From: an archaeon
GTDB taxonomy: Archaea; EX4484-52; B79-G9
Length of the DNA stretch: 41,055 nt
Direction of reading: 5' to 3'
NCBI GenBank assembly: GCA_043813875.1
Contig: JBDRKP010000039.1
Location: 1 to 41,055, forward strand
Position numbers: made by a program. Shown here one piece after another: positions 1-6,000 of the stretch (the stretch's first letter is position 1; every line of letters begins with the position of its first letter).

Positions 1-3000
1 CGCGTACGGCTTCGTCGCAAAAAATACGTCGTCTGTATGCAGGCGTAAACTGCAAGTGGTAGTTGGCTTCGCCAACTGTATGGCTTGAGCTAAGTAATTC
101 GATTTTCATAGAAATTCCTCCTTATACTGATTGTTTTATAATGAGCAAAGTGCAACAGTAAAACTAAGTCATTTCTTCAAAGGGTGCACTTTGCACCTCT
201 TCTTTATTTTTGAATTTCAATCGAGAAATAGTTAATGCAGGATTAGGCTCGCCTTTTGAAGTTGGTTCGCAATTCAATCTTCGGCTTAAAAGCCGAAGGG
301 TTTCTTGCTAGGCTCGCCCTAAAAAGAACTAATCAACGACAATAGCTTAATTTTTTAAAGTTAAGTACAACATATTAGGTATAAATCTAGTGCCCCGGTA
401 GCTCAGCAGGTAGAGCGCATGGCTGTTAACCATGTTGTCGCAGGTTCGAGAAATCAAACACAAAAATTGATTAGAAAATCCTGCCCGGGGCGCTCTTAAC
501 CTAAAATAGCCGCTACTTCTCGTCAGGCACACAAATATAACTTTAAACCGCAAAATAACTCTATGGAAACACATTATCTGACAAACGAACTGCGGGAAGA
601 ACTCAAAAAACCCATAGGAACCGCAATAATCGGCAAAGAAGAGGACGTAAAACAAAGGTTCAACAACATCATAAAAACAATACCTCACAAAAAACTCATA
701 TCAGTAGGCGATGTGACCTCAAGACTATTCGACGCAGACATAAAGATCTTCGACGGAAGGATCCTAAGAAACATACACGTAGATACAATAAAACCGACAA
801 TGACAGCGCTCAATCCACCGGCATCAATCGACAAAGGCATCTGGGATGTATTAAGACACGCCCTGAAATGCAACAAAAAAGAAAAGATCATGATAGACGG
901 CGAAGAAGACCTCATCGTCCTGCCGTTGATTCTTCTGTGCGACACAGACACAATAATCGTCTACGGCCTCCCCCACCAGGGCATAGGCTACGTCATCCCG
1001 GACAAAAATACAAAATCCAAAGCAGAATCGATACTCCAAAAAATGCGCACCCAAAAATTCAAAAAAATAGTAGTCGGCGGCACATTCGACCATCTCCATG
1101 ACGGCCACAGGTATCTCTTGAGGATGTCAAAATATTACGCAGAAAAGACATTCATAGGAATAACATCAGATGACATGGCAAGAAAAAAGCCCCATCCCGA
1201 AAAGATAGAGTCATACGAGACAAGGAAAAAATCAGTTGAAGATTGCGCAAAAAAAATCAACCTCAACTACGAGACAATAGAGATAGACGACATCTACGGC
1301 CCCGCTGCAGTTGACAAAGAACTGGACTCCATCATACTGACAGAAGAGACAATCAAAAACGGCATATTAGTAAACAAAAAAAGAAAACAAAATGGACTGA
1401 AAGGACTCAACTACATCATCCTCCCATACATCCTTGGCCCCGGCAGAACAAAAATAGACAGCACCAGCTTCAGAAAATAACGCATTGAAAAAAAAGATAT
1501 TTATACTAAGAAAATCATAGATAAAACATGAACAAAAAAATACTCATTGTTGCCCTATCAATAATCTTAGCTATCTTACTAATCTTTCTCGCCTTTAATA
1601 ACATGAATTCAGATAAAACCGGTTGCAATTGGAAACCGCCAAAAGGATACATCGGTCCCTGCCCGATGAATGCTGGCTGGTACTTCGATGGAAGAGGATG
1701 CGTTTCCTTGGGTGCATGCGTTGACGAAAAAAACTATGAACTTGTAGAAAAAGGAATCCCATTCAAAACAGCACAAGAATGTATCGCTGCATGTACAATA
1801 AAAAATCCGACAAACTCAAATCCTAGAAAGCTTCTCCCACTTCTTGAGCTTTAAGACACCCGAAAGCGTCCCGCCTTTCTTTATCTCCCCACGGATACGA
1901 TTCTCATTTTCAAACACACTCATCGCGCGATTAGCAACCTCAACCGCATCCTTCCTCGGAACAACAACAACCCCATTATCATCCCCGACAATATAATCAC
2001 CATCATTCACAACCTGCTCACCACAATTCACGCGAACGCCTATCTCACCAAACCCCTTGGCCTCCCCTGCATTCGGCCTGACATACCTAGCAAATGCAGA
2101 GAATTCAAGACCCCTAATCTCATCGATATCCCTGATAGTCCCATCGATAACCACACCGGCAATCCCACGATTGACAGCGCTATGACTCGCAAGCTCACCC
2201 CAAAGCGCAACATCCCCCCCATTCGCATCAATCACAATGACATCCCCCACTTTAGCCACATCAATCGCCTCGACAGGCTTCGACCAGTCCCCGTTCATCG
2301 CCCTGACAGTAACCGCACGCCCCACCATCTTTCGGCCCGGCGTCAGCGCAACAATACCCTTCATCGCCCCAAGCCCATGCATCGCATCGCTGATATTCGG
2401 CGTCGAGACCTTCGAAAGTATCCCAAAAACCTCGTCCTCCCTGTGAGCGCGCCTGTCAGCCTTCAGAGAAGCGCCAGCAATAGCCGCAAACACCCGGTCT
2501 ATAGCCACCCCGACATCAGCCTGCTTCGTGATTGCGCTCCCGATAATCAGTATATCCGCCCCGTTCTCACATGCAAGAGCAACATTATCCTCATCCAGAC
2601 CCCCTGCGACAGCAAGCGGTATGTTCACCGCATCCCGAAGCAGAGCAAGCCTCTCATCAATGACCTGTCCCTTCATCTGCTCATCAATGCTCAGGTGAAA
2701 AACAACATAATGCACACCCATCCGAGCGATTTCCACAGCCCTCTCAATCACCCTCTCCTTTGGAACCCCCAGCATATCGATCATTATCTTGGTCCCGTAC
2801 CTCTCCGCCTCCTTCACAGCATCAACAATAGTAGAATCATCAGACACCCCAAGAAGGATGACAACATCAGCACCGGCCTTAGCCGCAATCTCTACCTCGA
2901 CCGCTCCCGTATCGACAGTCTTCATATCAGCGACAATCGTATTTTTCGGAAAAGCGCGCCGGAACTTCCTCACAGCATCAAGACCCTCCGCCTTGATAAG

Positions 3001-6000
3001 CGGCGTCCCGACCTCAATCCAGTCAACACCCTTATCGACACAAATCTTCGCAACCTTCATGGCCCTCTCAAAATCAACAAAATCAAGCGCCACCTGAACA
3101 ATCGGCTTATCATCCATCCATATCACCACACGCAATAACATCAAGCCTCTCTTTCATAAAAAGAAGCACAGAAGAAAGATTCTTCCCATTATCGAACCCA
3201 TCGAGAATATCACGCAGCTCGGACTCATCAAGACCCTTCATCCTCTCAACCTCATCGCACAGACGAGGATAGCACCGGACAATATTATCGACTATAGTGA
3301 CATCAGCTGCCCGGGCGCTCCTAGAAAACGGCGACAAATCGACTGTGACGACCTTCTTTCCCATCCGGCAAAGCGCCTCTGTCCTGTCCCCATCCTCAAG
3401 CGGGACAAGCACGACATCAGCAGTGAATATGCCAGCCGGACTCACCTTCCCGCGTTCATGCAGAAGACCGGGGATGCGTTCCGTTGCATCACCACCTACA
3501 CCAAGCACTGCTGATTCAGCGCCCGCATCAATAAGAATCTTCTCGATAACCTTCTCCCTCTTACTGTTCCGGTAAAACAGATTAACCTCAAGGGGGCAGT
3601 CAAGAAGGCGTGAAAGCCTGACAGACTCAGCCGCAACCAGAGCCGCCGCATTTCCGTTGACCGAGATGACCGGCTTCCTTGCAAGAAGAAGCATGGCAGC
3701 TGCTGCACGTATAGCAGAAAGCGCAGCATCCCCGGTAGCCTCGCCGATAATATAATCAAACGCCTCGCCCCTCCCCTGCGCAATAAGTCCCTCCGGGACG
3801 ACAGCCCCGTTCCTGAATCCCAGGACCAGCCTTTCGCGTATCATAAGCGATTCATATCTCGGATGCGACTTAGGGATGGTAGTCATAATATCAGTCCAGG
3901 CTTCCTGTAGCCAACCTTCGTCTCAAAAACATAGTTGGCATCATTTAATTCGCGAAGCACATTTTTATTCATATCATCTAAAAGAAACACAAATCCGCTC
4001 TCACCAAGCATAGTCTGCGAAGCACGGCATCCCGGGATTGCATTAAGCCGCAAAAGAACCCTCCTGAGCCTTTCAGTAAGGAATCCTGCCTTCCCTGCAA
4101 ATTCAATAGAACATGCCATAAAATTATCAAACGTAGGATCAAAGAAAAGCTTCTCCAAAATCACATCAGCAATCCTGTTCAACTCCACGTATCCTTCACC
4201 GCTGATGACCTTTTTCGTATCAACGGCACCGAACGAAAAACATATCAGATGAACCGCATCACTCTTGATATTCTCAATCAGAGAACGTCCAGGCGCACCC
4301 TCCCTCTTCCTCATCTCGATGCCGCCGACAAGCATAGGCGAGACATCCCCTAGACCCGTAGCGCACTCAATTTCAGCAGCATGCGCAACCCCCCCGACCT
4401 CACCAAGCGACATGCCCAAAGAATATATCTCATTAAGACACAATCCCGCTCCCACGGCACACGCACCCGAAACACCGAACCCGGCACCAAGAGGCATCTT
4501 CGTAGTATGCCGGAAAATGACCTTCCCATGTGAATCAGGCGCCATCCTCTTCAGCACAGCAAAAGACGGGGCAAAATCCATCATATTGCCATTGAAATAT
4601 ACCAAAGAACCGGAACCGGGAACAGTTTCAACCTCGGTCACCACACCTTCATCTATGACAATGCCCGCCCCCCTGGAACCGGAATCAAGCGGATCATCAT
4701 GCATGCATACCCGAAAGATAGTCGAGATATGCCCGGGACAGTAAGCCCTGACCTTCATAGAATCACATCACTTCAAACGATTACTCTCATCAACAAAAAC
4801 AATCTTTGGCACAATGTTTTTCGAATCCTTCTCATCATACATCGCAAAAGACGCGATTATGACCACATCACCAGTATAGCAGCGATGTGCAGCGCTCCCG
4901 TTGACAGAAATCTCCCCGCTCCGGCCTTCGATTGCATACGTCACAAACCGCTTCCCGTTAGTGACATTCCACACATGGACCTTCTCATAAGGCAGGATAT
5001 CCGCGAAAGTTAGCAGCTCCCGATCAATAGAGATACTTCCTTCATAATTCATATCCGTACCGGTAACAACAGCCCGGTGTATCTTGGATTTCAACATAAT
5101 CCTTTCCATACCAAAAAGAATTCAGCAACCTACTTTTTAAACCTTCCGAAAACAGGCTACAATAATACGACAAACGCCGAAAACAGCCAATAAATCACAC
5201 TCATTTATATAAACCACAGCAATCCATTGAATAAGTCATACCCATAAGAAAAAGACCAGACGAACATATCGGAGGAATTCTAATGAACATCGGTTGCCTA
5301 AGAGAGATAAAAAACAACGAGAACAGGGTCGGAATAACTCCCGACGGCGCAAAAAAGCTGACAGAATCAGGCCACAGCGTATTCATAGAACACGACGCAG
5401 GAAAAGAAGCCGGATACGAAGATGATGCCTACATATTCAAAGGCGCAAAGATACTCTCAAAAGAAGATATATACTCAACATCAGACATACTCGTGAAAGT
5501 AAAAGAACCGCTACCCGAAGAATACCCCCTTCTTGAACTCCTTAAAGGAAGAACTTTGTACACGTATCTCCACCTTGCTGCTGCAGAAAAAGAGCTTACA
5601 TCACGATTGCTGGAAAACAGCATAACATCCATCGCCTACGAGACCGTGATCGACGAAAACAACCGCCTGCCGCTTCTTGCCCCGATGAGCGAGATAGCAG
5701 GCGTGCTTGCGATACAGTACGGCGCCCAATACCTCCAGAAAAAATACAATGGCAAAGGAATAACACTCGGCATAATAACAGGGACACCGAACGCCAAAGT
5801 CGTAGTCGTTGGCGGCGGGACTGCCGGAGCGAAAGCAGCCATGACAGCAGCAGGCATCGGATCATGTGTGACCCTGTTCGAACTAAGCGACAGAAGAATC
5901 GAAGAGCTAAGAGACATGTTCAGGAACCATAGGAATGTCAAGATAATAAAATCAACGCCAGAAGAACTCAAAAAATACACCCAGGCAGCAGATCTCCTGA

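What a model noticed while it worked through the whole genome (the two positions that open the first line are those of the whole stretch)
1816..5097. Hexulose-phosphate synthase-RraA aldolase fusion sits in place of PanB in the pantothenate operon
The operon panD-PoK-PPS ends with an HPS-RraA/HMG-aldolase fusion (g00666), and the genus has no PanB. The fusion is a candidate ketopantoate synthase: HPS frees formaldehyde, the aldolase domain adds it to ketoisovalerate.
Evidence so far: Overlapping PPS-g00666 order in G000, G001, G004, G005, all copies with upstream DNA; PanB in 0 of 8 genus genomes, and in the 3 order genomes that have it (fused to PanD in the two examined) no full-length g00666 is found; RraA part matches HMG/CHA aldolases.
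(Added by a program. Inside this text positions count along the whole contig: contig position 1 is position 1 of the stretch shown here. "Call 12" and the like, gene names such as g00115 and contig names such as C1 are that model's own, and its searches are not shown. The text may have been shortened before it was handed on; [...] marks where a part breaks off. The agent that wrote the report below was given it as the finding of a first reader that could run no searches.)

Follow-up and report, generated by a model that had tools for sequence, protein, structure and literature searches.

The report
Candidate missing vitamin B5 synthesis enzyme
A long-known but unexplained two-part enzyme of archaea and some bacteria repeatedly sits where the standard first enzyme of vitamin B5 and coenzyme A synthesis should be, so it probably does that job by another chemistry, which would explain how many methanogens and other archaea make this essential cofactor.

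Summary
Confirmed and extended. The window holds panD–PoK–PPS–(HPS/RraA fusion), and the genome has no PanB. The fusion is the known HPS-MenG/PRK07028 family, whose second domain has no assigned function.

New evidence from other lineages:
- In one actinobacterial class (Thermoleophilia by record titles), 44 of 44 fusion loci examined lie beside panG and/or panC. At the same tsaE–udg site, panC(–panD) is followed either by panB or by yjbQ–fusion.
- Two Asgard-like contigs read PoK–PPS–fusion–PanE–MfnA, a complete pathway lacking only PanB.
- Fusion and PanB nearly exclude each other: both occur in 0/161, 1/151 and 23/201 genomes. The co-occurring PanBs mostly form a separate clade in a catabolic cluster.
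- Both active sites are conserved in 136 homologues.

A role as ketopantoate synthase is likely (~0.8). The exact chemistry (HPS-released formaldehyde added to ketoisovalerate) is inferred (~0.55). None of the 201 bacterial genomes has the isomerase that makes hexulose phosphate, and most archaeal copies lie far from CoA genes. No such proposal was found in ten searches of an open-access library.

The parts
4768..5109 (-). panD, aspartate 1-decarboxylase (beta-alanine supply)
   Evidence: PF02261 E 1e-45; TIGR00223 135 bits over cut-off 106
3883..4758 (-). pantoate kinase (PoK), GHMP family
   Evidence: NF040725 157 bits and NF041122 141 bits, both below cut-off; PF00288; position before PPS
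3110..3886 (-). phosphopantothenate synthetase (PPS)
   Evidence: PF02006 E 4e-66; PRK13761 342 bits over cut-off 227
1816..3117 (-). HPS-RraA (HPS-MenG, PRK07028-like) fusion, 433 aa; proposed ketopantoate synthase replacing PanB
   Evidence: NF005442 561.7 bits over 4-430 (cut-off 593); start codon overlaps the PPS stop by 8 nt; context and distribution
2497..3099 (-). N-terminal hexulose-6-phosphate synthase TIM barrel (residues 7-207); E35, D64, K66, D69, H141 invariant
   Evidence: PF00215; TIGR03128 198 bits (cut-off 200); 3AJX TM 0.92 by target length; 136 of 136 homologues
1963..2403 (-). C-terminal RraA / HMG-CHA-aldolase domain (residues 239-385); E308-X20-R329-D330 motif
   Evidence: PF03737 E 1e-44; aligns to 3NOJ D102/R123/D124; R329 and D330 in 136 of 136, E308 in 128 and G in 8
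3123..3127 (-). GGTGA Shine-Dalgarno-like element 5 nt before the fusion's ATG, inside the PPS 3' end
   Evidence: read from the sequence; function inferred
563..1480 (+). dephospho-CoA kinase (DUF359) - phosphopantetheine adenylyltransferase fusion, last CoA steps; convergent neighbour, not in the operon
   Evidence: PF04019 + PF01467; PRK00777 122 bits over cut-off 104; also 2.6 kb from the fusion in G006 (L233)

Best explanation
The HPS-RraA fusion makes ketopantoate in place of PanB, the first committed step of pantoate and CoA synthesis. SHOWN: domain content, conserved active-site residues, operon position in three lineages, in-place swap with panB, near exclusion with PanB. INFERRED: the C-terminal RraA-fold domain is a metal-dependent 2-keto-acid aldolase that enolises 2-ketoisovalerate and adds it to formaldehyde. 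The N-terminal HPS domain supplies that formaldehyde by retro-aldol cleavage of hexulose-6-phosphate (leaving ribulose-5-phosphate), so no methylene-tetrahydrofolate is needed. In G000 the rest would be: PHI makes hexulose phosphate, IlvC reduces ketopantoate, and PoK, PanD, PPS, CoaBC and DPCK-PPAT finish CoA. Confidence is about 0.8 for the role and about 0.55 for this exact formaldehyde route.
For: (1) Window genus: last gene of panD-PoK-PPS in 4 genomes; PanB 0 of 8. (2) Class of G060: panG-like and/or panC beside the fusion in 44 of 44 loci examined. At the tsaE-udg site the order is panG-panC-panB or panC-panD-panB in 8 of 8 long PanB-only loci (L072-L079), and panG-panC-yjbQ-fusion or panC-panD-yjbQ-fusion in fusion genomes (e.g. 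L062, L064, L259-L262). (3) L157 and L177 (fusion 71-74% identical to proteins named Helarchaeota/Lokiarchaeota) read PoK-PPS-fusion-PanE-MfnA. (4) L210 has a PanG-like gene divergent from PHI-fusion; PHI is directly upstream in 3 of 80 metagenome loci. (5) Co-occurrence with PanB: 23 both / 64 fusion only / 109 PanB only / 5 neither of 201; 0/104/31/26 of 161 and 1/110/29/11 of 151. (6) All 24 PanB loci of the 23 'both' genomes lack panC, panG and panD in the 4-7 kb flanks; 22 of 24 are at least 65% identical to one of them (itself counted), and 18 of 24 lie with an aminotransferase and/or MttB methyltransferase. (7) The three operon contexts fall in separate parts of the tree. (8) G000 has a separate AOR-HPS-HPS protein, so this HPS is not needed for pentose supply. 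(9) Methanospirillum HPS-MenG has real but low HPS activity, 0.21 against 6.05 U/mg for Fae-HPS (PMC5241800 passage).
Against: PHI (TIGR03127) was found in 0 of 201 genomes of the bacterial class, a divergent PHI query found nothing in 5 of them, and 1 of 5 Thermoplasmatota fusion genomes lacks PHI, so the hexulose-phosphate source there is unknown. Of 39 Halobacteriota/Thermoplasmatota fusion loci only 1 has any CoA-pathway seed hit within 6 kb (an MfnA), 0 of 4 further methanogen loci do, and only 5 of 80 metagenome loci do (many are short). Ten bacterial-type yjbQ-fusion loci lie among folate and Wood-Ljungdahl genes instead. 23 of 87 fusion genomes in the bacterial class still carry a PanB homologue that could make ketopantoate. 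M. jannaschii has PPS but neither PanB nor a full-length fusion (controls). G000 has no PanE or PanG. No RraA-fold enzyme is known to me to accept ketoisovalerate, and Asn71 and His75 of 3NOJ are not matched in the alignment. Kin are not independent, so the counts overstate significance. No enzyme assay exists.
Confidence: 0.72

Rival explanations
1. The RraA domain makes ketopantoate, but its formaldehyde comes from elsewhere (free, or released from methylene-THF/H4MPT, perhaps via the YjbQ subfamily). The HPS domain runs forward, trapping surplus formaldehyde on ribulose-5-phosphate as a buffer.
For: No PHI in 201 bacterial genomes; yjbQ-fusion beside folD, fchA, metF and acsE in several bacteria; SHMT present in G000 and in two bacterial fusion genomes tested; M. 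jannaschii has an RraA-family protein but no full-length fusion (controls).
Against: PHI is directly upstream of the fusion in three loci and present in G000. The HPS site is invariant in 136 homologues, which fits an obligatory step.
Confidence: 0.13
2. It is an ordinary reverse-RuMP hexulose-phosphate synthase for pentose supply, with an RraA domain that detoxifies formaldehyde by adding it to pyruvate. The link to pantothenate genes is hitch-hiking, and PanB-less genomes take up pantoate or use another unknown enzyme.
For: HPS activity was measured for HPS-MenG; most archaeal copies are not near CoA genes; some copies lie with PHI or near Fae-HPS; an Asgard isolate predicted unable to make pantoate grows better when given it (PMC11316595 passage; whether it has the fusion was not tested).
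Against: Three separate operon associations, the in-place swap with panB, and 196 of 201 bacterial genomes holding at least one of the two genes. A second HPS exists in G000. The bacteria lack PHI, so reverse RuMP cannot run there as known.
Confidence: 0.08
3. It serves CoA synthesis at another point: supply of ketoisovalerate or beta-alanine, reduction of ketopantoate, or repair of a side product.
For: Operon context alone does not name the step; G000 lacks PanE and PanG.
Against: Beta-alanine (PanD or MfnA) and reductase (PanE or PanG-like) genes sit in the same operons; neither domain is a reductase; the gene it excludes is specifically panB.
Confidence: 0.05

Closest known systems
HPS-MenG / PRK07028 'bifunctional hexulose-6-phosphate synthase/ribonuclease regulator' (e.g. 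Methanospirillum Mhun0647)
   Same: Same two domains, order and length; full-length match to NF005442; homologues 43-57% identical across archaea and bacteria.
   Different: Scores 561.7 bits, under the 593 cut-off. The family is described only as an HPS whose MenG-like domain has unknown function (PMC5241800 passage); no pantothenate role is assigned.
PanB, ketopantoate hydroxymethyltransferase (PF02548)
   Same: Proposed same net product and keto-acid substrate, and same operon slot. Metal-enolate aldol chemistry is recalled; a THF-independent reaction is named in a reference title seen.
   Different: No sequence match to PF02548. PanB takes its C1 from methylene-THF (PMC13488298 passages), whereas the fusion is proposed to use formaldehyde from a sugar phosphate.
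HMG/CHA aldolase (3NOJ) and RraA-family class II pyruvate aldolases
   Same: Same fold and the acidic-X20-Arg-Asp motif aligning to D102/R123/D124; R123 is catalytically important in 3NOJ (PMC5065237 passages).
   Different: 24% identity; fused to HPS; Asn71 and His75 not matched; an invariant GDW and C-terminal WE are family-specific; biosynthetic rather than aromatic-degradation context.
Fae-HPS, HPS-PHI and AOR-HPS fusions of the reverse RuMP pathway
   Same: An HPS barrel fused to a partner that handles formaldehyde or its precursor; G000 itself has AOR-HPS-HPS.
   Different: Here the partner is a keto-acid aldolase, so the formaldehyde would be used for biosynthesis rather than captured on H4MPT or oxidised.

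Membership tests
PRK07028 / HPS-MenG | N-terminal HPS barrel plus C-terminal RraA domain in one ~430-aa chain | tested here: met
   PF00215 7-207 and PF03737 239-385, 433 aa; model pLDDT 93
PRK07028 / HPS-MenG | Score over the curated NF005442 cut-off (593 bits) | tested here: not met
   561.7 bits, full length; many full-length relatives also fall just short, so it is a divergent homologue rather than a formal member
3-hexulose-6-phosphate synthase (HxlA) | Conserved active-site Asp, Glu, D-x-K-x-x-D and His (roles recalled from HPS/KGPDC work) | tested here: met
   E35, D64, K66, D69, H141 in 136 of 136; D12 in 133 with 3 gaps; identical in the 3AJX alignment; TIGR03128 198 bits against cut-off 200
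3-hexulose-6-phosphate synthase (HxlA) | Catalyses Ru5P + formaldehyde <-> Hu6P | not testable with these tools
   Measured only for a homologue, 0.21 U/mg (PMC5241800 passage)
RuMP pathway (HPS + PHI) | Partner PHI in the genome | tested here: inconclusive
   Present in G000 and 4 relatives and in 4 of 5 Thermoplasmatota; 0 of 201 in the bacterial class
HMG/CHA aldolase - RraA class II aldolases | Alpha-beta-beta-alpha fold with D/E-X20-R-D metal and substrate motif (motif wording recalled; the paper read states only that two motifs exist) | tested here: met
   TM 0.82 to 3NOJ by target length; E308-X20-R329-D330
HMG/CHA aldolase (LigK equivalog) | Score over the TIGR02798 / PRK09262 cut-offs | tested here: not met
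   89.5 of 304.5 and 99.6 of 179 bits
RraA RNase E regulators | Score over the PRK09372 / TIGR01935 cut-offs | tested here: not met
   61 of 136 and 59 of 124 bits; RNase E binding not tested
PanB (PF02548) | Sequence homology to PF02548 | tested here: not met
   No Pfam hit; none in G000 at E <= 1
PanB (function) | Makes ketopantoate from ketoisovalerate | not testable with these tools
   Inferred from context and distribution only
Non-orthologous displacement of panB | Same operon slot and complementary distribution | tested here: met
   with 24 exceptions among 302 fusion genomes in the three samples

The most novel reading that the evidence does not exclude
PRK07028 is a widespread folate-independent ketopantoate synthase, a two-aldolase relay that passes carbon 1 of a hexose phosphate as formaldehyde onto ketoisovalerate. 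It fills the PanB gap in many methanogen-containing and Thermoplasmatota lineages, some Asgard and DPANN archaea and several anaerobic bacteria. A distinct YjbQ subfamily (G[AS]T...TTxE[FYH]EPG) is its C1-supplying partner, replacing hexulose-phosphate isomerase where that is absent.
Probability: 0.35. Interest if true: 0.92.

Novelty: new variant of a known kind. Interest (0 to 1): 0.85.

Why it matters
The CoA pathway was completed experimentally in Thermococcus, which has a PanB-type enzyme (PMC6650551 passages). Model methanogens have PPS but no PanB (controls), so how they make pantoate is open (its standing as an open question is partly my recall). This names a single testable candidate found in 104 of 161 and 111 of 151 genomes of two archaeal phylum samples. 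It would give a function to a domain called unknown in print and correct metabolic reconstructions that call such organisms pantoate auxotrophs. It would also add a folate-free C1-transfer chemistry, of possible use for pantothenate production, where PanB and methylene-THF supply limit yield.

Tried and rejected
- CoA genes near the fusion in Halobacteriota and Thermoplasmatota: essentially none.
- A search for stand-alone RraA orthologues returned mostly fusion fragments among the 120 listed, and the Atlas gave only generic RraA clusters under 0.9. The Methanococcales case is therefore unresolved.
- A search with a Lokiarchaeota-named homologue listed no protein named Promethearchaeum syntrophicum among the best 120; most rows have no name, so this shows nothing.
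- YjbQ as a family does not track the fusion: 181 of 201 genomes have one. The EPG-type copy also lies just after panB in two PanB-only genomes (L078, L280), which weakens 'YjbQ replaces PHI'.
- The promoter and terminator scan was at chance level.
- The within-order contrast with G019-G021 was set aside as weak because those genomes use the bacterial route.
- Fisher tests were computed but not relied on, since kin are not independent.
- No complex prediction was run, as no binding claim is made.
- The scan's earlier findings could not be consulted.
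Full report
WHAT IS IN THE WINDOW. Four genes run head to tail on the minus strand: panD (5109-4768), pantoate kinase (4758-3883), phosphopantothenate synthetase (3886-3110) and a 433-residue protein (3117-1816). 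The junctions are tight: a 9-nt gap, a 4-nt overlap and an 8-nt overlap, the last with a GGTGA element before the ATG. The last protein has an HPS barrel (residues 7-207) and an RraA domain (239-385). It matches PRK07028 over its length at 561.7 bits, just under the 593 cut-off. A DPCK-PPAT fusion lies 336 nt beyond it on the other strand. The closest titled relatives (72-77% identity) are records labelled Ca. Nanohalarchaeota, plus one unclassified archaeon.

THE GENOME. G000 (91.5% complete) has no PanB at E <= 1, no true PanE (only weak Rossmann hits) and no DUF2520. It has IlvC, CoaBC, PHI, SHMT, a single RraA domain (this one), a YjbQ and a separate AOR-HPS-HPS protein. IlvC serves as ketopantoate reductase in Corynebacterium and Thermotoga (passage of PMC7883664). 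So each step from ketopantoate to CoA has a candidate, and only the PanB step is empty. In the 42-genome phylum sample the full-length fusion is confined to this genus, PanB to three genomes of another family, and PPS to 6 genomes.

SECOND LINEAGE: AN IN-PLACE SWAP. A scan of species genomes returned 28 loci, 18 of them actinobacterial, with titles such as Thermoleophilia and Gaiellales. Their shared order is a Rossmann+DUF2520 gene, yjbQ, the fusion, and then a convergent panC. DUF2520 proteins are described as the PanG ketopantoate reductase type (passage of PMC4572677 citing Miller 2013; the original was not readable). None of the 22 genomes behind the non-genus loci has PanB. In an even sample of 201 genomes of that class, 87 have the fusion and 132 have PanB: 64 fusion only, 109 PanB only, 23 both, 5 neither, against 39 'neither' expected by chance. 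I examined 44 fusion loci: the 18 above, 6 from 'both' genomes and 20 picked for long contigs. All 44 have panG-like and/or panC alongside, and 43 have yjbQ directly upstream; the other starts inside the gene. All 15 PanB-only genomes examined have panC just before panB, with or without panD between. The 8 long loci among them show the same tsaE-udg flank as the fusion loci. Thus panG-panC-panB pairs with panG-panC-yjbQ-fusion, and panC-panD-panB pairs with panC-panD-yjbQ-fusion (six loci).

THE EXCEPTIONS. I fetched all 24 PanB loci of the 23 'both' genomes. None has panC, panG or panD in the 4-7 kb flanks. 22 of 24 are at least 65% identical to one of them (itself counted), and 18 of 24 sit with an aminotransferase and/or an MttB methyltransferase, usually behind an Lrp regulator. 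In a small tree five of the first six group together, along with the PanB of the one Thermoplasmatota 'both' genome. They look like a catabolic paralogue, though they may still make ketopantoate.

THIRD LINEAGE. Among 80 metagenome loci (the best 80 of 586 confirmed), L157 and L177 read PoK-PPS-fusion-PanE-MfnA. MfnA-type decarboxylases supply beta-alanine in archaea (recalled). That is the whole route to phosphopantothenate with one unassigned gene and one missing step. Their fusions are 71-74% identical to proteins named Helarchaeota and Lokiarchaeota. L210 has a PanG-like gene divergent from PHI-fusion, and L204 and L211 also have PHI, over its cut-off, directly upstream. A FastTree tree of 136 near-full-length fusions (duplicates, fragments and frameshifted copies left out; midpoint root) places the window's genus beside Halobacteriota sequences (support 0.90), apart from both the Asgard-like pair and the bacterial clade. 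The link to pantothenate genes is therefore seen in at least three separate branches; I did not test direction of transfer.

DISTRIBUTION IN ARCHAEA. In the phylum of G044 (Halobacteriota by my reading of its Methanofollis title), 104 of 161 genomes have the fusion, 31 have PanB, none has both and 26 have neither. In the phylum of G042 (Thermoplasmatota), the counts are 111 of 151, 30, 1 and 11. These splits largely follow lineages, so they count as a few events, not hundreds. Against the idea, only 1 of 39 fusion loci from these phyla has any CoA seed hit within 6 kb, and 75 of 80 metagenome loci have none. M. jannaschii has PPS and an RraA-family protein but neither PanB nor a full-length fusion (controls), so the fusion cannot be the whole answer for methanogens.

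ANATOMY AND MECHANISM. The model is confident (pLDDT 93) and matches HPS 3AJX and HMG/CHA aldolase 3NOJ by domain. In 136 homologues the HPS residues E35, D64, K66, D69 and H141 are invariant, as are R329, D330, E405 and a GDW motif in the second domain. E308 is Glu in 128 and Gly in 8. E308, R329 and D330 align to D102, R123 and D124 of 3NOJ. R123K lowers kcat 181-fold there, and that enzyme works through a pyruvate enolate in a roomy active site (PMC5065237, introduction and passages). Ketopantoate is the aldol product of ketoisovalerate and formaldehyde, and another class II aldolase, YfaU, adds pyruvate to formaldehyde (PMC7918591 passage). The simplest reading is a relay: HPS cleaves hexulose-6-phosphate to give formaldehyde, and the RraA domain adds it to ketoisovalerate. 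The low HPS rate of Methanospirillum HPS-MenG, about 30-fold below Fae-HPS, fits a cofactor-scale flux but proves nothing. Every catalytic step here is inferred.

THE WEAK POINT. PHI was found in 0 of 201 genomes of the bacterial class (a divergent query also found none in five). The YjbQ that travels with the fusion is a distinct subfamily lacking the usual HTT motif, and it takes the upstream slot that PHI has elsewhere (13 against 3 of 80 loci). All 87 fusion genomes have a YjbQ, while the 20 genomes without one all lack the fusion. It may supply hexulose phosphate or formaldehyde. However, the same subfamily follows panB in two PanB-only genomes, and ten yjbQ-fusion loci lie among folate and Wood-Ljungdahl genes, which keeps open a folate-derived formaldehyde source.

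WHAT IS IN PRINT. [quoted passage not shown] Ten full-text searches (listings only, except where a read is cited) showed no proposal of a pantothenate role; 'RraA + aldolase + ketopantoate' and 'methanogens + panB + missing + pantoate + archaea' gave zero papers. The library lacks most subscription papers, including the original archaeal KPHMT, PanG and RraA-motif studies, and bioRxiv supplements were not available, so an earlier proposal cannot be excluded. Of PMC7883664 I read part 1 and passages; of PMC6650551, PMC11316595 and PMC13488298, passages only.

VERDICT. It is a known protein family with a probably new, testable function: a non-homologous replacement of PanB. Role about 0.8, exact chemistry about 0.55, interest 0.85.

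Noticed in passing
window 392-492 (+): tRNA-Asn(GTT) interrupted by a ~27-nt insertion in the T-loop, probably a non-canonical archaeal intron. ARAGORN misses it as it stands, Rfam sees only a weak partial hit, and it is recognised once the insertion is left out.
   Followed up: partly
G000:C64:4569-7544 (+), L002/L003: Aldehyde:ferredoxin oxidoreductase fused to two tandem HPS domains (991 aa). Frames of similar length with two HPS hits occur in several genomes of three genera of the order; a likely reverse-RuMP module that oxidises its formaldehyde.
   Followed up: partly
L065:6458-11216, L067, L071, L241-L257: A separate PanB-like clade in an Lrp - PanB-like - aminotransferase - MttB methyltransferase - corrinoid protein cluster; possibly an undescribed catabolic pathway for a methylated, hydroxymethyl-branched amino acid.
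   Followed up: partly
L038:5532-5981, L139:3084-3503, G000:C14:13657-14154: YjbQ/UPF0047 subfamily with G[AS]T...TTxE[FYH]EPG in place of the usual HTT...NE.ADP; directly upstream of the fusion in several bacterial groups and present in G000.
   Followed up: partly
L038:8187-9131 and most of L023-L042: A peptidase S58 (DmpA-like) gene lies directly upstream of panC in loci that show no panD; a candidate alternative beta-alanine source. Genome-wide absence of panD was not tested.
   Followed up: no
L043-L045, L231 (G019-G021): PanB and PanD in one open frame of 377-394 codons, followed in G020 by CoaBC and PanC: a bacterial-type pantothenate route in a DPANN genus.
   Followed up: partly
L103, L105, L106, L110, L112, L137, L141, L199: In one Thermoplasmatota-type clade the fusion overlaps or abuts a downstream DUF362 + 4Fe-4S protein of about 330 aa; function unknown.
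   Followed up: no
window 9577-19434 (-): A 3285-aa ORF with an N-terminal hydrophobic stretch, weak Ig-like repeats and a C-terminal membrane segment; probably a giant surface protein.
   Followed up: no
window 1528-1854 (+) and 6487-7029 (+): Two small cysteine-rich ORFs with signal-like N-termini and no Pfam or NCBIfam match; the first overlaps the fusion's 3' end by 39 nt on the opposite strand.
   Followed up: no
L080:5992-7443: One Halobacteriota fusion is about 50 residues longer than usual (match spans 479 codons); the insertion was not examined.
   Followed up: no
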